Shown here piece by piece: positions 2,115-10,660 of a stretch of DNA of 34,670 bases. Numbering within the stretch: position 1 is the stretch's first letter; every line of letters starts with the position of its first letter. The position numbers were made by a program, and so were the translations under genes. The notes below the pieces were generated by a model. It was given only the letters and a program-made list of their open reading frames with translations, was not told where the DNA came from and made no database searches. This stretch comes from a virus (lineage: Duplodnaviria; Heunggongvirae; Uroviricota; Caudoviricetes): the IMG/VR virus record IMGVR_UViG_2563366941_000005, one strand, 5' to 3'.

Positions 2115-3062
2115 TCACCCCTGCGGCGGTTCTGGTAGAGGCATCCAGAACAAGGCGTTCCCTAACCACGATAAAGTGCCGTCGCTCAACTCCACGTATT
2201 CCCCTTGCACCTGGCCTGCCATATACTCACCGTGCTTTGAATAAATTAAAATCCAATCATCTTGATCGGGCATTCGCTCACTACAGCTTATCCAACCATC
2301 CGGAGTTACCGGATAGTTGCCAGCCAGTCTACGCAAAACAGCCTTAACCGCCTCAATACGGTCATCATCGCAACTTTCCAGCGTATCTATGCGATCGAGC
2401 ATGATGATGGCGTTATCAATATCAGGATTGCCGGTCCACTCATTACCGCGATTGGATTCGGCAGCCTGGTTGCCGTGTACTGTTTGATTCTCGGCTTTAC
2501 CCAGTCTGTCGTCGCTGCATGAATGCCCTTCCAGCCAGGCCAATGCTTGTCGCATGAAATACGCAATATGTTTGCCGTGGTAATCGTCTTCATCGATGTG
2601 AAAAGCGATACTGCGGATGTATTCAATTGCGTTTTCAATGGCCTCCGGCGTTATCGGCGCTGACATATTTTGATTTTGGAGTGCCAAGACGCGGCTGGCA
2701 TCCTCAACATCTTTAACTGCATCTGCGCAGTAGTTATAGCGATTGCACTCCACTAACTTCTGCTTGAGATTTTCAATTGCTTGCGCGACATCAGCCTGTA
2801 TTACCGGCACAGGCGGAGCGGCGTACAAAGCAATCAAACTGCCAATTGTTCGCTCTTTCGCATCATCCAGACATGGGTAGGCCGGGGTAGATACAATTGC
2901 ATTATCTCTAAGGTCGTCAGCCATTACCCATGCCACCGGCTCTGCTTCCAGCGAGGCTAACGCTATTTCATAAGCCCGGCGCTCAATATTGTCTCTCACG
3001 TCCAGGCTGCCTATGCGCTCTTTGATTTCTTTAATCAGTTCTTTGTCGGTAAAAGTGCTCAT
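2115..3062 (-). CDS. Phage protein with C-terminal DUF551-like domain
   Basis: ORF ending WMPLPEPPQG (typical DUF551 terminus); start moved to ATG at 3062 with AAGGAG SD 6 nt upstream; N-terminus paralogous to the next gene. Confidence 0.75.
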   Translation of the reverse strand: MSTFTDKELIKEIKERIGSLDVRDNIERRAYEIALASLEAEPVAWVMADDLRDNAIVSTPAYPCLDDAKERTIGSLIALYAAPPVPVIQADVAQAIENLKQKLVECNRYNYCADAVKDVEDASRVLALQNQNMSAPITPEAIENAIEYIRSIAFHIDEDDYHGKHIAYFMRQALAWLEGHSCSDDRLGKAENQTVHGNQAAESNRGNEWTGNPDIDNAIIMLDRIDTLESCDDDRIEAVKAVLRRLAGNYPVTPDGWISCSERMPDQDDWILIYSKHGEYMAGQVQGEYVELSDGTLSWLGNALFWMPLPEPPQG

Positions 3063-3063
3063 A

Positions 3064-3513
3064 TCAATCTCCTTTGGTACCAATGTTTACAGCCTGGCAA
3101 GCCTCTTTGAGCACCCAGTCAACAGCGTCTTTCCATGCTCCGGTTTCGACTGGCGGATTTTCACGCTTAACCTGTTCATAGAAGCGCACTGCTTTAATCA
3201 ATCCTTCTGGTGTCAGTGGCACAGGTGGAGCGGTGAATAACGCCTGAATTTCATAGTTCGGCCTGTCGTTGCAATCCTCTTTTGTCGGTACATATTTCCA
3301 GTCACCAACCCACTGCTCCCCCTGAGAGTCCGTAACGCCTTTTTTCACATAGCGATATCGCCACGCTATCGGCTCTGCTTCCAGCGATGCCTGTGCGATA
3401 CGAAACACATTGGCAAGCAGGCTGTCTGAGGATTGGTTATCGTGCGCTGGGTCGCTCAGGAAGCCATTGATGAATGATTTAATCTTCGAGCTTTCTCTGG
3501 TAATAGTGGTCAT
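3064..3513 (-). CDS. Hypothetical phage protein, N-terminal paralog of the DUF551 protein
   Basis: 149-aa ORF sharing ASLEAEP[IV]AW and APPVP motifs with 2115..3062; AAGGAG SD; stop overlaps the next SD. Confidence 0.7.
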   Translation of the reverse strand: MTTITRESSKIKSFINGFLSDPAHDNQSSDSLLANVFRIAQASLEAEPIAWRYRYVKKGVTDSQGEQWVGDWKYVPTKEDCNDRPNYEIQALFTAPPVPLTPEGLIKAVRFYEQVKRENPPVETGAWKDAVDWVLKEACQAVNIGTKGD

Positions 3514-7730: not shown

Positions 7731-8405
7731 TTAGGCCTTTATTTTGTATCTTCTTGGTTTTCCTGAGAAAATTACTGTACCAATTATAGAGCAATTACCG
7801 TTAATCTTAATGTAAGGCTCAGGCCAGTTTGGGTTTAATGCTTTGAGATAACGCTGTGTTCCATCTTCTATCAATCGCTTGAAGGTGGTTTCGCCTGTAT
7901 CGTGCATCAATGCAATAACGTCGTCACCGTGGCAGGCAGGGACTTCGGGATCAACAAAAATCATGTCTCCCGGGCGGTACTCATCAATCATTGAATCACC
8001 AATCACCCGCAAGATATAAGTCATTTCGCCACAGGGTACAGGGCAGGGATAAGTTTCTGCTGTGCTCAAATCAACCTCAGAATAGCCAACTTCTTTCCAT
8101 GCTCCGGCCTGTACCCATGATATGACAGGGACTAACGTTATTTGTTTGTTAGTAATTGAAACATCAGGTTTTTTTGTGATGTTTGTTGTCTGGTGTTCTT
8201 GATCAAGCCATCCGACAGGCAGGTCGAAACATTTTTCGATGTGCCGTGCCATGCTGTCACCGATATTTTTAGTAGCACCATCTCCCATAAACCTGCTGGT
8301 CTGGGTTGGCTCGCGATCAATCATGGTGGCAAAGGAAGAATTCCCGCCAACACCATCTCTCAGTTTTCTGGCGTTAGACCGCCGGATGTCATGGACTGTT
8401 TTCAT
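7731..8405 (-). CDS. cI: CI-like prophage repressor (N-terminal HTH, C-terminal S24 LexA-like peptidase domain)
   Basis: 224-aa ORF; C-terminal VIGDSM...GD..FVD...K signature of S24 autopeptidase; divergent from the cro-like gene; no SD upstream, consistent with a leaderless transcript. Confidence 0.85.
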   Translation of the reverse strand: MKTVHDIRRSNARKLRDGVGGNSSFATMIDREPTQTSRFMGDGATKNIGDSMARHIEKCFDLPVGWLDQEHQTTNITKKPDVSITNKQITLVPVISWVQAGAWKEVGYSEVDLSTAETYPCPVPCGEMTYILRVIGDSMIDEYRPGDMIFVDPEVPACHGDDVIALMHDTGETTFKRLIEDGTQRYLKALNPNWPEPYIKINGNCSIIGTVIFSGKPRRYKIKA

Positions 8406-8727: not shown

Positions 8728-9297
8728 ATGAGGCTAACCGTGGGTAAGCATCACTGGAAAGTAGAAAAACAGCCTGAGTGGTACGTGAAAGCTGTCAGAA
8801 AAACTATCGCGGCGTTGCCGGGGGGTTACGCTGAAGCTGCTGAGTGGCTGGATGTAACAGAGAACGCATTATTCAACCGCCTTCGTGCAGATGGCGATCA
8901 GATTTTCCCGCTGGGATGGGCAATGGTTTTACAGCGTGCGGCTGGCACTCACTACATTGCGGATGCTGTCGCACAGTCTGCTGGTGGGGTGTTCGTATCG
9001 CTTCCTGAAATTGAGGCAGTAGAGAACGCCGATATAAACCAGCGCCTGCTGGAAGTCATTGAACAGATCGGCAGTTATTCCAGACAGATTCGTTCAGCAA
9101 TCGAAGACGGTGTAGTGGAACCGCATGAGAAGACAGCAATTAACGACGAACTGTATCTTTCAATTTCGAAGCTCCAGGAGCATGCAGCACTGGTCTACAA
9201 AATCTTCTGCGCTCCAGAAAAGAGTAACGCCCGCGAGTGTGCAGCTCCGGGCGTCGTGGCGTCGATTGCTTCTGGTTGTGGAGAAACTAACGCATGA
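8728..9297 (+). CDS. CII-like / YdaT-like regulatory protein
   Basis: 189-aa ORF directly after cro; N-terminal segment AEWLDVTENALFNRLRADGDQIFPLGWAMVL resembles the CII HTH region; start may instead be GTG at 8740. Confidence 0.55.
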   Translation: MRLTVGKHHWKVEKQPEWYVKAVRKTIAALPGGYAEAAEWLDVTENALFNRLRADGDQIFPLGWAMVLQRAAGTHYIADAVAQSAGGVFVSLPEIEAVENADINQRLLEVIEQIGSYSRQIRSAIEDGVVEPHEKTAINDELYLSISKLQEHAALVYKIFCAPEKSNARECAAPGVVASIASGCGETNA

Positions 9298-9622
9298 ATA
9301 GTTTAACGGCAAATAACCGTTTGTCGCAACAGCTGGTGGTCAGCGTCGCTGAACACCTGTTGTTACGGCATGAATGCAGATTACCAAATCACCTGGCTGT
9401 AAGTAACCACAGAGAACTTTACCTGACTGTGGGGGGCGAGTTGTGCAGGAACTTAACCGCTGGTTTCGTGACGGAAGAGGGCTTTATGTCCATGTTATTC
9501 GTTGGGAGCCAGAAACACAGCGCGTTATCTATCTTCGCAAAGACTACCCGCATGAGTGCTTTAGTCCTTTGTGGAAATTCAGGCGTGATTTTGTTGAGTG
9601 TGAAGGACCACCAGCATATTGA
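9294..9622 (+). pseudogene. Possible frameshifted small gene (frame 0 N-terminus joined to a protein-like frame +2 segment at a G6 tract)
   Basis: ATGA overlap with the preceding stop; G GGG GGC heptamer at 9431-9437; downstream frame encodes VVQELNRWFRDGRGLYVHVIRWEPETQRVIYLRKDYPHECFSPLWKFRRDFVECEGPPAY up to a stop at 9620-9622. Confidence 0.3.
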
Positions 9623-9893
9623 TTCTGCAATTCCGGGACGTTACACTGTTCAGGCACCTTATAAAGCGGGTGCCGGGATTGGCGTCCTGAAATTCGCACA
9701 TGCGCATAACCGCGCTTCAGCGGTTTTTTTGCGCACGTTTCCTCACATCCAAATTATGGTGGGGCGTGCAGGGGCATCGAAAGATGCGCCGGGGTCATGT
9801 GCGACCGGTTACGCCAACCCTGTACGTCTCACCACCTCTGTGATTGGCGTCCCATGTGGTGAGTTTTCAAAATTCGCACATGAGGATGTCACT

Positions 9894-10439
9894 ATGGCAA
9901 CCACCCCTACCCAAACTCACCCTAAAATTGATGTTATCCATGGGAAGGCTGTTACCTCTTCTTTGGCCGTTGCCGAATATTTCTGCAAGCAGCACAAAAA
10001 CGTTATTCAAAAAATCCAGACGCTTGAGTGCTCTGTTGAATTCACTGAGCTGAATTTTCAGCCCAGTGATTACACCGATTGCACAGGCCGCAAACTCCCT
10101 TGTTACCAAATCACCCGCGACGGTTTTGCGTTTCTTGCCATGGGCTTCACGGGGAAACGTGCTGCCCGGTTCAAAGAGGCATACATCAATGCCTTTAACC
10201 AGATGGAGAAACAGCTTTCAAATCCCTCTGTACTGAGCGACGTTGCACATAACGCCAGCGTTCTCTATTCCTACATTTCATCAATTCATCAGGTCTGGCT
10301 GCAGCAGCTTTATCCCATGTTGGCAAAAGCCGAATCCCCGCTGGCTGTAAGTCTGTATGACCGCATCAACGACGCGGCGCTACTGGCCAGTCTCATAAAT
10401 TTGTCGCTGAACCCTTCAGAGGTAAGGGGGCGCAAATGA
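9894..10439 (+). CDS. Rha-family phage regulatory protein
   Basis: Rha-like core VTSSLAVAEYFCKQHKNVIQKIQTL ... ITRDGFAFLAMGFTGKRAARFKEAYINAFNQME; internal ATG at 9894 has GAGGA SD; the upstream 600 bp of the tracked 381-aa ORF is not Rha-like. Confidence 0.75.
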   Translation: MATTPTQTHPKIDVIHGKAVTSSLAVAEYFCKQHKNVIQKIQTLECSVEFTELNFQPSDYTDCTGRKLPCYQITRDGFAFLAMGFTGKRAARFKEAYINAFNQMEKQLSNPSVLSDVAHNASVLYSYISSIHQVWLQQLYPMLAKAESPLAVSLYDRINDAALLASLINLSLNPSEVRGRK

Positions 10440-10660
10440 TCCGGAATATTTTCAAACGGTTTACCAATCATACTTTCCGTTGTCCTCGTCCGGGTCAGTG
10501 GTACACCACGCCTGCAGGGCATGTTCTACGTGTTAGCCTGGTTGACCGTGAATGTCAGAAGGTGATTTGTGAACCGCTGGGCCGTAATTACCGCATCAGT
10601 ATGCCGCTTATAGCCTTTTGCTCCGGAAAAAACATGAAGCATCTCGGAGGTGCAGCATGA
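10436..10660 (+). CDS. Small hypothetical protein (74 aa, Cys-containing)
   Basis: ATGA overlaps with both neighbours, suggesting translational coupling. Confidence 0.4.
   Translation: MIRNIFKRFTNHTFRCPRPGQWYTTPAGHVLRVSLVDRECQKVICEPLGRNYRISMPLIAFCSGKNMKHLGGAA

What the first reader, a model, noticed from the sequence alone, without database searches (positions are those of the whole stretch)
9294..9893. Cryptic ORF split at a G6 tract, plus a duplicated 13-mer, upstream of Rha
The tracked 381-aa ORF is a composite; only its last 181 aa are Rha-like, starting at an internal ATG with a good SD. In the upstream 600 bp, frame 0 runs into the heptamer G GGG GGC (9431-9437) and a different frame then encodes a strongly protein-like 59 residues up to a stop at 9620. 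One extra G, or a -1 slip on this X XXY YYZ shaped heptamer, would fuse them into a protein of about 109 aa. The 13-mer AAATTCGCACATG occurs twice (9690-9702 and 9870-9882), bracketing the segment before the Rha start.
Basis: seen in the sequence. Interest (0 to 1): 0.5.

Follow-up and report, generated by a model that had tools for sequence, protein, structure and literature searches.

The report
Antisense-RNA switch guarding a prophage antirepressor
The "split gene" is two separate small phage genes, and the repeated 13-mer is the pair of docking sites for a known antisense RNA (C4/IsrK type) that keeps a prophage antirepressor silent; all of it belongs to known families.

Summary

**Upstream half (9294-9622).** This holds two adjacent genes, not one broken gene.
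- The first is a YmfM-like N-terminal gene in frame 0.
- The second is a 59-aa DUF4222 gene in the -1 frame. It has its own start codon, conserved across genera, and the G6 tract sits where its Shine-Dalgarno should be.
- G6 is the normal state: 840 exact matches in complete E. coli genomes, against 6 records with G7.
- In Yersinia phage YeP2 the two genes are separate and joined by an ATGA stop/start overlap.

**Downstream half (9654-9893).** This is a P1 immI / Gifsy-1 isrK-type RNA switch.
- It contains an IsrK sRNA (Rfam 62 bits) and a C4 antisense RNA (75 bits).
- The 13-mer copies are the b1 and b2 target boxes. A second repeat, GATTGGCGTCC, gives a1 and a2.
- Across phage variants, 9 b-types and 4 a-types co-vary three ways with the C4 loops.
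- b2 abuts the Shine-Dalgarno of the Rha antirepressor gene (ATG 9894).

**Unexplained residue.** Frame 0 stays stop-free across both RNA genes in all 59 variants, yet shows no amino-acid constraint.

The parts
8728..9297 (+). ymfL-like CII-family gene. Its TGA stop overlaps the ATG at 9294 (ATGA).
   Evidence: ORF list. Pfam Phage_CP76, E=3.5e-15. PGAP names it 'protein YmfL' in the 100%-identical FORC_069 prophage.
9294..9442 (+). YmfM-like N-terminal gene in frame 0, about 49 conserved codons. It has no stop of its own here, so the frame runs on to 10439.
   Evidence: The protein is conserved across genera, with M1, Q12 and V46 invariant and G47 nearly so. Codon-position diversity is 0.12/0.12/0.21. 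In Yersinia phage YeP2 it is a separate 53-codon ORF whose TGA stop overlaps the DUF4222 ATG.
9431..9436 (+). G6 tract. It supplies the Gly-Gly codons at the end of the N-gene (the preceding GTG encodes the conserved Val) and lies at Shine-Dalgarno distance, 6 nt, from GTG 9443.
   Evidence: It aligns with AAGGAG (e14), GGAGGG (Enterobacter and Kluyvera) and AAGGAGG (Atlantibacter), all upstream of the same start position. G6 is an exact match in 840 complete-genome records, against 6 with G7. In IMG/VR, G6 is in more than 120 contigs, G7 in 2 and G5 in 1.
9443..9622 (+). DUF4222 (RgdR-family) small-protein gene: 59 aa, GTG start, TGA stop.
   Evidence: Pfam PF13973, E=9.4e-14; PHROG 1343, E=2e-36. 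Codon-position diversity in this frame is 0.17/0.13/0.41. The start codon (ATG, GTG or TTG) is conserved in 20 diverged loci. PGAP annotates the CDS at the same place.
9619..9647 (+). Candidate IsrK promoter: TTGATT, 17 nt, TACACT. The transcription start would fall near 9654.
   Evidence: Read from the sequence. It is an 8/12 match, below the scan tool's cut-off. The predicted start coincides with position 1 of the Rfam isrK match. This is an inference.
9654..9730 (+). IsrK-like sRNA. It carries a1 (9677-9687, in a hairpin loop) and b1 (9690-9702), and ends at an intrinsic terminator (9708-9730).
   Evidence: Rfam RF01394, 62.3 bits against a gathering score of 50, full length 1-77. Terminator scan. 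Fold.
9690..9702 (+). b1 box, the first 13-mer copy. It is complementary to the C4 b' loop.
   Evidence: For a1-a' plus b1-b', 97.9% of cells are paired and 13 of 16 pairs change on both sides.
9752..9839 (+). C4-type antisense RNA. The b' loop is CAUGUGCGA (9796-9804) and a' is ACGCCAA (9811-9817).
   Evidence: Rfam RF01695, 75.1 bits against a gathering score of 45, full length 1-87. MFE fold -46.5 kcal/mol with b' in a hairpin loop.
9756..9893 (+). Analogue of Gifsy-1 orf45. The ATG at the 5' end of C4 opens 46 codons that run in frame into Rha with no stop.
   Evidence: In about 110 unique loci this ATG is always in frame with the downstream gene and no stop intervenes. The role of orf45 in Gifsy-1 is described in PMC4825925.
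9842..9852 (+). a2 box (GATTGGCGTCC), complementary to a'.
   Evidence: RNAduplex energy -10.3 kcal/mol.
9870..9883 (+). b2 box, the second 13-mer copy plus one base. It pairs with b' over 10 bp, and its last bases overlap the Shine-Dalgarno GAGGA at 9882-9886.
   Evidence: Inverted repeat 9795-9804 / 9874-9883. b'-b2 is 95.4% paired, with a covariation score of 0.97 against 0.23 in shuffles. Duplex energy -16.6 kcal/mol.
9894..10439 (+). Rha-family antirepressor-like gene (181 aa), the regulated output of the switch.
   Evidence: Pfam Phage_pRha, E=1e-32. PHROG hits to 'Rha-like transcriptional regulator' and 'anti-repressor Ant'.

Best explanation
The 600 bp hold two unrelated things that an over-long ORF call has merged.

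**(1) Two small, translationally linked genes of the early rightward operon.**
- A YmfM-like N-terminal gene starts at the ATGA overlap with ymfL at 9294.
- A 59-aa DUF4222 (RgdR-family) gene starts at GTG 9443 in the -1 frame.
- That frame offset is what an ancestral ATGA stop/start overlap produces.
- In this clade the upstream gene has lost its stop and simply reads on.
- The G6 tract encodes the two Gly codons that follow the conserved Val (GTG) at the end of the upstream gene. It also lies at Shine-Dalgarno distance from the DUF4222 start. It is not a frameshift site.

**(2) A P1 immI / P4 / Gifsy-1 isrK-type antisense-RNA switch controlling the Rha-family antirepressor.**
- A promoter overlapping the DUF4222 stop probably starts transcription near 9654. 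This is inferred.
- Most transcripts end at the terminator, giving the 77-nt IsrK sRNA, which carries boxes a1 and b1.
- Read-through transcripts contain the C4 RNA.
- The C4 loops a' and b' pair with boxes a2 and b2, which lie immediately 5' of, and overlap, the Rha Shine-Dalgarno. Pairing blocks Rha translation. By analogy with P1 and P4, the untranslated message would then be open to premature termination.
- IsrK carries the same boxes as the target, so it can titrate C4 or remodel the read-through RNA and switch Rha on, as shown for Gifsy-1.
- The variable a and b boxes set the specificity of each phage's switch, as they do between P1 and P7.

**Shown here:** the RNA family matches, the complementarity, the three-way covariation and the gene boundaries.
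**Inferred:** the promoter, RNA processing, the direction of regulation and antirepressor activity.
For: **RNA switch**
- Rfam isrK scores 62.3 bits (gathering score 50) and C4 scores 75.1 bits (gathering score 45). Both matches are full length.
- The terminator is at 9708-9730.
- In 59 unique variants there are 9 b-types and 4 a-types. Box 1, the C4 loop and box 2 change together. b1 uses G-U wobbles, for example GAUUACUG against CGGUAGUC.
- Formal counts: a1-a' plus b1-b' are 97.9% paired, against 67% in shuffles and 30-51% with slid partners. 13 of 16 pairs change on both sides.
- b'-b2 is 95.4% paired, with a covariation score of 0.97 against 0.23.
- The b'-b2 duplex is 10 bp and -16.6 kcal/mol, ending at the Shine-Dalgarno.
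- The Gifsy-1 mechanism and the IsrK/P4 seqA analogy are in PMC4825925. P1 immI is summarised in PMC8198154.

**Two genes**
- DUF4222 has Pfam and PHROG hits.
- Its start codon and Shine-Dalgarno are conserved in 20 diverged loci.
- Codon-position diversity is 0.17/0.13/0.41 in the DUF4222 frame, so the frame-0 tail is unconstrained.
- The N-part protein family aligns across genera.
- YeP2 and Morganella phage have separate upstream genes with their own stops.
- Stand-alone DUF4222 genes occur in distant phages.
- G-tract census.
Against: - No expression data were available. The promoter is only an 8/12 consensus match that the scan tool did not report.
- GGGGGG is an imperfect Shine-Dalgarno, and GTG is a weaker start than the ATG used by most homologues.
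- The upstream gene has no stop for 381 codons here. Ribosomes starting at 9294 would in principle read through DUF4222, both RNA genes and Rha, and the model does not need or explain that.
- Rare in-frame N-part-DUF4222 fusions exist and persist in a small lineage, so a fusion protein is at least tolerated.
- Unlike P1 there is no icd gene between C4 and the antirepressor. Unlike Gifsy-1 the orf45 analogue has no stop.
Confidence: 0.82

Rival explanations
1. Programmed -1 ribosomal frameshifting, or transcriptional slippage, on G GGG GGC fuses the YmfM-like N-part to DUF4222 and makes a 109-aa protein alongside the separate products.
For: - The heptamer is in the X XXY YYZ phase, and the DUF4222 frame is open from 9407.
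- Both halves are under purifying selection. The frame relation 0 to -1 is the same in 22 of the 23 distinct diverged loci examined; the Morganella phage is the exception, and the more distant EKP1 has no recognisable N-part ORF.
- The N-part has no stop of its own.
- In-frame fusion alleles occur naturally (P0001, P0044).
Against: - The heptamer is not conserved. Other clades have GTG GGG GTC or GTG GGT GAT.
- e14 has a TGA in the DUF4222 frame directly after its G run, which leaves no slippery site.
- The start codon and Shine-Dalgarno of DUF4222 are conserved in every lineage.
- There is no stimulatory structure 3' of the heptamer (z = +0.5).
- In YeP2 the N-gene stops at the DUF4222 ATG, so the frame relation is explained by an ATGA overlap.
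- Distant DUF4222 genes stand alone.
Confidence: 0.06
2. The locus is a 109-aa gene recently inactivated by loss of one G, that is, a pseudogene or sequencing error in this window.
For: G7 alleles encoding an uninterrupted 109-aa protein exist (P0001: 19 sequences, 44 contigs). Six complete genomes carry G7.
Against: - G6 is an exact match in 840 complete-genome records, against 6 with G7.
- In IMG/VR, G6 is in more than 120 contigs, G7 in 2 and G5 in 1.
- The same two-frame layout occurs in Citrobacter, Enterobacter, Kluyvera, Klebsiella, Kosakonia and Atlantibacter, each with a different junction sequence.
- The other 'fused' database proteins each carry a different indel and are mostly singletons.
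Confidence: 0.03
3. The duplicated 13-mers are operator half-sites bound by a protein such as CI, Cro or Rha.
For: They are direct repeats flanking a regulatory region upstream of a regulator gene.
Against: - They co-vary with the complementary loop of the C4 RNA that lies between them. The co-variation includes G-U wobble states, which only make sense at the RNA level.
- They are not palindromic.
- They fall inside Rfam-defined RNA elements.
Confidence: 0.03
4. The 381-aa ORF is one real protein, as GenBank and PGAP annotate it ('Rha family phage regulatory protein', 'peptidase', 'antirepressor').
For: - Frame 0 is open in every variant. There are 32 distinct stop sites in the other two frames and none in frame 0 (P about 2e-6).
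- Indels are multiples of 3.
- Pfam Phage_ASH matches aa 117-211.
Against: - There is no codon periodicity in frame 0 across 9621-9893.
- Over the DUF4222 overlap, frame-0 second codon positions are the most variable.
- The stretch contains two Rfam RNA genes and an intrinsic terminator.
- Rha has its own Shine-Dalgarno and ATG, conserved in all variants.
- PGAP itself starts the protein at different internal codons in different genomes.
Confidence: 0.05

Closest known systems
Gifsy-1 isrK-orf45-anrP locus of Salmonella (Hershko-Shalev et al. 2016, PMC4825925)
   Same: - The order of parts is the same: IsrK sRNA with a leaky intrinsic terminator, then a processed C4/CI-like RNA (STnc1160) overlapped by a short ORF starting about 103-107 nt from the IsrK 5' end, then an antirepressor gene.
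- IsrK shares sequence with the downstream target.
- The Rfam isrK model matches full length above its gathering score.
   Different: - Here the orf45 analogue has no stop and runs in frame into the antirepressor.
- The module sits inside the early rightward operon, after ymfL / ymfM-like / DUF4222, rather than next to antQ.
- No isrJ was looked for.
- Nothing here has been tested experimentally.
immI operon of phages P1 and P7 (c4 - icd - ant1/ant2; Citron & Schuster 1990, cited in PMC8198154)
   Same: - A C4 antisense RNA has a' and b' loops.
- Upstream a1/b1 and downstream a2/b2 boxes are present, and the downstream pair covers a ribosome-binding site ahead of an antirepressor.
- Sequence variation in the boxes gives specificity types, as between P1 and P7.
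- The Rfam C4 model matches at 75 bits.
- A possible long and short antirepressor from in-frame starts would resemble Ant1/Ant2.
   Different: - There is no icd gene between C4 and the antirepressor.
- The antirepressor is Rha-family rather than P1 Ant.
- The upstream boxes lie in a terminated sRNA (IsrK).
- The host element is a lambdoid, e14/SfV-like prophage.
Phage P4 immunity (CI RNA with seqA and seqC)
   Same: - A small RNA is processed from the leader transcript.
- It pairs with two repeated sites, one upstream and one downstream of itself.
- PMC4825925 calls IsrK a structural homologue of P4 seqA.
   Different: - In P4 the outcome is premature transcription termination of the replication operon, not control of an antirepressor.
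- No P4 sequence was compared here.
e14 ymfM (annotated 'cell division inhibitor YmfM', K-12 b1148) and the DUF4222/RgdR family
   Same: - The window's 9294 ORF starts like ymfM (MNSLT..., overlapping the ymfL stop).
- e14 also contains the DUF4222 ORF nested in the -1 frame, with an AAGGAG Shine-Dalgarno and a TTG start.
- RgdR (ECs1581) is the one studied DUF4222 protein, a prophage regulator of LEE1 and motility (PMC3378721).
   Different: - e14 lacks the IsrK-C4-Rha module.
- In e14 frame 0 stops just before the next gene, giving the 112-aa annotation.
- RgdR is 99 aa, sits on a P4-like element, and was not aligned to this protein here.
dnaX-type -1 programmed frameshift sites and homopolymeric phase-variation tracts
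   Same: A G-rich heptamer lies in the X XXY YYZ phase at the junction of two coding frames. Tract-length variants (G5, G7) exist.
   Different: The site is not conserved, it has no stimulatory structure, the downstream frame has its own start, and length variants make up about 1% or less of copies.

Membership tests
C4 antisense RNA (Rfam RF01695; P1/P7 immI) | Sequence and structure match to the covariance model above the curated gathering score | tested here: met
   75.1 bits against 45; model positions 1-87 of 87; window 9752-9839.
C4 antisense RNA (Rfam RF01695; P1/P7 immI) | Loops a' and b' are complementary to downstream a2/b2 boxes that cover a ribosome-binding site | tested here: met
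   b' 9796-9804 pairs with b2 9874-9882, with T9795 pairing A9883 for 10 bp in all. a' 9811-9817 pairs with a2 9844-9850. The Shine-Dalgarno GAGGA at 9882-9886 overlaps b2. b'-b2 is 95.4% paired with a covariation score of 0.97.
C4 antisense RNA (Rfam RF01695; P1/P7 immI) | Upstream duplicate boxes a1/b1 | tested here: met
   a1 is 9677-9687 and b1 is 9690-9702. 97.9% of cells are paired and 13 of 16 pairs change on both sides. The Rfam c4-a1b1 model itself scores only 21.6 bits against a gathering score of 46.7, because the stretch fits isrK better.
C4 antisense RNA (Rfam RF01695; P1/P7 immI) | An icd-like ORF between c4 and ant whose translation is the direct target | tested here: not met
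   There is no separate ORF. The only ORF (ATG 9756) overlaps C4 and continues in frame into Rha.
C4 antisense RNA (Rfam RF01695; P1/P7 immI) | Processing of C4 from a precursor by RNase P, and repression of the antirepressor in vivo | not testable with these tools
   Needs northern blots or primer extension, and reporter assays.
IsrK sRNA (Rfam RF01394; Gifsy-1) | Covariance-model match above the gathering score, ending in a Rho-independent terminator | tested here: met
   62.3 bits against 50; model positions 1-77 of 77; window 9654-9730. Terminator stem 9708-9725 plus a T run.
IsrK sRNA (Rfam RF01394; Gifsy-1) | Its own promoter directly upstream | tested here: inconclusive
   TTGATT, 17 nt, TACACT at 9619-9647 places the start near 9654. 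It is only an 8/12 match and was not reported by the scan.
IsrK sRNA (Rfam RF01394; Gifsy-1) | A downstream short ORF (orf45) coupled to an antirepressor gene | tested here: met
   ATG 9756 lies at +103 from the IsrK start, against +107 in Gifsy-1. It is followed by the Rha-family gene. The ORF here lacks a stop and is in frame with Rha.
DUF4222 (Pfam PF13973; RgdR family) | Domain match above the gathering score in a small stand-alone protein | tested here: met
   51.1 bits against 27; residues 3-52 of 59. PGAP makes the same call. Stand-alone 62-70-aa homologues occur in distant phages.
Programmed -1 ribosomal frameshift site | Slippery X XXY YYZ heptamer in the zero-frame phase, with the -1 frame open downstream | tested here: met
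   GT G GGG GGC in frame 0. The -1 frame is open from 9407 to 9619.
Programmed -1 ribosomal frameshift site | Conservation of the slippery site in homologues with the same two-frame layout | tested here: not met
   Other clades have GTG GGG GTC or GTG GGT GAT. e14 has a TGA in the -1 frame immediately after.
Programmed -1 ribosomal frameshift site | Stimulatory structure 5-9 nt downstream | tested here: not met
   Folds of 9438-9480 and 9438-9500 give z = +0.5 and +0.6 against shuffles.
Programmed -1 ribosomal frameshift site | The downstream frame lacks independent initiation | tested here: not met
   ATG, GTG or TTG at the same aligned position, with a purine-rich Shine-Dalgarno, in all 20 diverged loci.
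Phase-variable homopolymeric tract | Frequent tract-length polymorphism among closely related isolates | tested here: not met
   G6 is an exact match in 840 records and G7 occurs in 6 of 989 complete-genome records. In IMG/VR there are 2 contigs with G7 and 1 with G5, against more than 120 with G6.
Rha family (Pfam PF09669) | Domain match above the gathering score | tested here: met
   113 bits against 29.9; residues 21-106 of the 181-aa product.

The most novel reading that the evidence does not exclude
Selection keeps frame 0 free of stop codons from the ymfM-like start at 9294, across DUF4222, the IsrK sRNA, its terminator, the C4 RNA and the a2/b2 boxes, into Rha. The encoded amino acids are not constrained. 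What is selected would then be ribosome transit itself.

On lytic transcripts from the early promoter, ribosomes coupled from ymfL would melt the IsrK terminator and the C4 structures. That would override the antisense lock, or protect the downstream replication genes from polarity. Transcripts from the IsrK promoter in a lysogen would lack that start and stay locked.

A related point concerns K-12: the conserved product inside the annotated 'cell division inhibitor' ymfM may be the nested DUF4222 protein, the N-part, or both, rather than the 112-aa chain.
Probability: 0.25. Interest if true: 0.6.

Novelty: already known. Interest (0 to 1): 0.3.

Why it matters
- **Annotation.** Hundreds of E. 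coli, Shigella and Stx-phage records annotate one 278-434-aa 'Rha / antirepressor / peptidase / ash' protein here. That call hides a DUF4222 gene, two regulatory RNAs and the true antirepressor start.
- **Immunity types.** The a and b box types (9 x 4 seen here) give a simple sequence readout of which prophages share, or escape, each other's antisense control of antirepressor expression. This bears on induction of Stx and other lambdoid prophages.
- **Side issues worth a bench test.** The stop-free frame across two RNA genes is unexplained. The nested DUF4222 ORF lies inside K-12 ymfM, whose filamentation phenotype was assigned using whole-ORF clones.

Tried and rejected
1. **Split gene or frameshift.** Rejected on the G-tract census, the conserved start and Shine-Dalgarno, the non-conserved heptamer, the e14 in-frame TGA, the lack of downstream structure, and the separate genes in YeP2 and Morganella phage.
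2. **Fused database proteins as evidence for an ancestral 109-aa gene.** On inspection each carries a different indel. P0002-4, P0024, P0046, P0058 and P0060 are tiny clusters. Only P0001 (G7) and P0044 (e14 type with one extra G) have several members.
3. **Synonymous-codon resampling.** I asked whether frame-0 openness over DUF4222 exceeds chance. The probability is 0.15-0.39 per lineage, so the test is uninformative.
4. **Codon periodicity over the RNA region.** A real protein in frame 0 should show it. None was found.
5. **Duplex energy alone.** For b' against the target the separation from shuffles is weak (-16.6 against -10.5 +/- 2.4 kcal/mol). The case rests on covariation.
6. **The a'-a2 helix.** I could not count it formally, because a 3-nt indel puts the box types out of register in alignment A3. 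It is supported only by the table.
7. **The 10-nt inverted repeat 9332-9341 / 9606-9615.** It is not a structure signal. It is two opposed Chi octamers.
8. **Literature.** Nothing found links DUF4222 with ymfM or with ribosome-profiling data.
Full report
**Origin and context.** The window is a lambdoid (e14/SfV/mEp460-like) E. coli prophage.
- The target region is 100% identical to a prophage of strain FORC_069 and 99.4% identical to phage Lys8385Vzw.
- About 1,490 of 5,426 complete E. coli genomes carry a related stretch.
- The gene order is: a LexA-like repressor (7731-8405, minus strand), a cro-like gene, ymfL (CII family, 8728-9297), the target region, Rha (9894-10439), a 74-aa gene, then a replication gene.

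**Observation check.**
- The G6 tract is at 9431-9436 and is followed by C.
- In frame 0 the codons read GTG GGG GGC.
- A 59-codon ORF runs from GTG 9443 to TGA 9620-9622 in the -1 frame.
- The 381-codon ORF is open from 9294 to 10439.
- The 13-mer lies at 9690-9702 and 9870-9882.
- An exact 13-mer repeat appeared in 0.1% of shuffles of the 600 nt.
- The Rha start is ATG 9894, preceded by GAGGA at 9882-9886.

**Upstream half: two genes, not one broken gene.**
- The 59-aa ORF is a DUF4222 protein (Pfam E=9e-14; PHROG 1343, E=2e-36). PGAP annotates exactly this CDS in genomes where it does not extend Rha over it.
- I examined 20 diverged loci from Citrobacter, Phytobacter, Atlantibacter, Enterobacter, Kluyvera, Buttiauxella, Kosakonia, Shigella and E. 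coli e14. In all of them the DUF4222 ORF begins with ATG, GTG or TTG at the same aligned position as GTG 9443.
- That start is always preceded by a purine-rich Shine-Dalgarno: GGAGGG, AAGGAG or AAGGAGG. The window's GGGGGG occupies the same place, 6 nt from the start.
- Across 12 diverged loci, nucleotide diversity by codon position in the DUF4222 frame is 0.17/0.13/0.41. This frame is the coding one. Frame-0 second positions are the most variable, so the frame-0 continuation is not constrained as protein.
- The first ~50-60 codons of frame 0, upstream of the DUF4222 start, are a genuine conserved protein: MNSLT..Q..FRYE.R..N..V..NH....VG. V46 is invariant and G47 nearly so, and they are encoded by the GTG GGG at the start of the G run. 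Diversity there is 0.12/0.12/0.21.
- In Yersinia phage YeP2 this N-part is a separate 53-codon ORF whose TGA stop overlaps the DUF4222 ATG (GTATGA). In a Morganella phage the upstream gene ends 8 nt inside DUF4222. In a more distant phage (EKP1) DUF4222 stands alone.
- An ATGA overlap produces exactly the 0 to -1 frame relation seen in the window. In the E. coli, Klebsiella and Enterobacter clade the upstream gene has lost that stop and reads on. That read-on is what K-12 annotates as the 112-aa YmfM.

**G-tract census.**
- In complete E. coli genomes the 76-mer with G6 matches exactly in 840 records.
- The G7 version occurs in 6 of 989 records: one exact match, and five that also carry CAGG>CGGG. 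Two of the six were read directly and confirmed.
- The protein database holds a 109-aa G7 fusion (P0001: 19 sequences, 44 contigs). It also holds a scatter of other fused forms, each with a different indel. These compare with DUF4222 59-aa clusters of 81-289 members.
- The heptamer is absent from other clades, and e14 has a TGA in the DUF4222 frame directly after its G run.
- There is no structure 3' of the heptamer (z = +0.5).
- I therefore reject the pseudogene, programmed frameshift and phase-variation readings. None of them is formally excluded at low efficiency.

**Downstream half: a C4/IsrK antisense switch.**
- Rfam finds IsrK at 9654-9730 (62.3 bits, gathering score 50) and C4 antisense RNA at 9752-9839 (75.1 bits, gathering score 45). 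Both matches are full length.
- IsrK ends at the terminator 9708-9730.
- A second repeat, GATTGGCGTCC at 9677-9687 and 9842-9852, gives boxes a1 and a2.
- The C4 hairpin loop CAUGUGCGA (9796-9804) is complementary to both b boxes. ACGCCAA (9811-9817) is complementary to both a boxes.
- In 59 unique variants of this region, drawn from about 200 loci, I found 9 b-types and 4 a-types. Box 1, the C4 loop and box 2 always change together.
- Two b1 types pair through G-U wobbles (GAUUACUG against CGGUAGUC; CAAUAUAG against CUAUGUUG). That fits RNA pairing, not protein operators.
- Formal counts on 12 representative types:
  - a1-a' plus b1-b' are 97.9% paired, against 67% in shuffles and 30-51% with slid partners. 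13 of 16 pairs change on both sides, and the covariation score is 0.83 against 0.21.
  - b'-b2 is 95.4% paired, with a score of 0.97 against 0.23.
- The last base of the 13-mer (G9882) is the first base of the Shine-Dalgarno GAGGA.

**Mechanism.** The architecture is that of Gifsy-1 isrK-orf45-anrP.
- In Gifsy-1, IsrK transcripts that read through the terminator form a translationally silent mRNA. Short IsrK acts in trans to open it. Translation of orf45, which lies over the C4/CI-like RNA STnc1160, is coupled to the antirepressor gene (PMC4825925).
- It also matches P1/P7 immI, where C4 RNA blocks expression of the antirepressor (PMC8198154).
- My inference for this window:
  - A promoter TTGATT-17-TACACT (9619-9647) overlaps the DUF4222 stop and starts IsrK at about 9654.
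  - C4, made from read-through transcripts, pairs with a2 and b2 and occludes the Rha ribosome-binding site.
  - IsrK carries the same boxes, so it competes for C4 and de-represses Rha.
- The promoter, RNA processing and direction of regulation are inferences. The complementarity and covariation are shown.

**The long ORF.** One feature is not trivial, however.
- Across 9621-9893 the 59 variants are only 59-100% identical to each other (median 73%).
- Frame 0 has no stop in any of them. The other two frames have 32 distinct stop sites, 30 of them polymorphic (P about 2e-6 under equal thirds). Indels are multiples of three.
- There is no codon periodicity.
- The ATG at the 5' end of C4 (9756, the position of Gifsy-1 orf45) is always in frame with the downstream gene, whatever that gene is, with no stop between them.
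- Openness downstream of 9756 fits the known need for orf45 translation. Openness upstream, over b1, the terminator and the spacer, is unexplained.
- Pfam Phage_ASH matches aa 117-211 of the ORF. That stretch is the translation of IsrK plus C4.

**Comparison and novelty.**
- All components belong to curated families (Rfam isrK and C4; Pfam DUF4222 and Rha). The logic is that of P1 immI, P4 immunity and Gifsy-1 IsrK.
- The differences from the known systems are:
  - there is no icd gene;
  - the orf45 analogue has no stop;
  - the antirepressor is Rha-family;
  - the module sits in the early operon, after a DUF4222 gene.
- The DUF4222 family has one studied member, RgdR (PMC3378721, PMC10877973).
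- I rate the finding as already known in kind, and of low to moderate interest. The stop-free frame and the ymfM/DUF4222 nesting are the only points that might repay experiments.

Noticed in passing
L008 (E. coli K-12 e14) 2823-3181; equivalent to window 9294-9622: K-12 ymfM (b1148, annotated 'cell division inhibitor YmfM', 112 aa) contains a complete DUF4222 ORF nested in the -1 frame: TTG at L008:3002, preceded by AAGGAG, 59 codons. Between lineages the DUF4222 frame shows the coding signature, while the C-terminal half of YmfM does not. A text search of the ymfM filamentation preprint found only whole-ORF clones in pBAD24 and no frame-specific controls.
   Followed up: partly
window 9621-9893 (frame of ATG 9294): Frame 0 is free of stops in all 59 sequence variants of the IsrK-C4 region. 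The other two frames have 32 distinct stop sites. All indels preserve the frame, yet there is no codon periodicity. The frame seems to be kept open without amino-acid constraint, including upstream of the orf45-like ATG at 9756.
   Followed up: partly
window 9642-9927: The Pfam 'Ash protein family' (PF10554) match, aa 117-211 of the 381-aa ORF, coincides with the IsrK and C4 RNA genes. PGAP's 'ash family protein' calls in related genomes cover the same stretch. The family's apparent conservation may largely reflect RNA conservation.
   Followed up: partly
window, whole; inside the finding at 9332-9339 (+) and 9608-9615 (-): The Chi octamer GCTGGTGG occurs 17 times in the 34.7-kb window (13 on the + strand), against 1.4 expected from shuffles. 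Two opposed copies account for the 10-nt inverted repeat found inside the target region.
   Followed up: no
window 10436-10660: The 74-aa ORF after Rha starts with an ATGA overlap on the Rha stop. It is PHROG 1153 (E=8e-45). That family also hits the DUF4222 59-mer weakly (E=0.008; pairwise BLASTP E=0.047). It may be a distant paralogue flanking the RNA/antirepressor module on the other side.
   Followed up: partly
L233, L234 (E. coli 2014C-3011 and 720632); protein P0001: A small lineage carries G7 instead of G6: 6 of 989 complete-genome records, and 44 contigs in the protein database. G7 fuses the N-part to DUF4222 (109 aa) and closes the long frame-0 ORF at 9620. PGAP still annotates only the 59-aa protein there.
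   Followed up: yes
protein P0064 (78 aa; 22 member sequences): Deletion derivatives exist in which the YmfM-like N-part (about 46 aa) is joined in frame directly to the last ~30 residues of Rha. DUF4222, IsrK, C4 and most of Rha are gone.
   Followed up: no
alignment of 59 variants of window 9652-9900: The a boxes (4 types) and b boxes (9 types) assort in different combinations, and with at least four different downstream genes (ORFs of 88, 123, ~230 and 328 codons from the C4 ATG). This suggests modular exchange of specificity determinants among E. coli prophages.
   Followed up: partly
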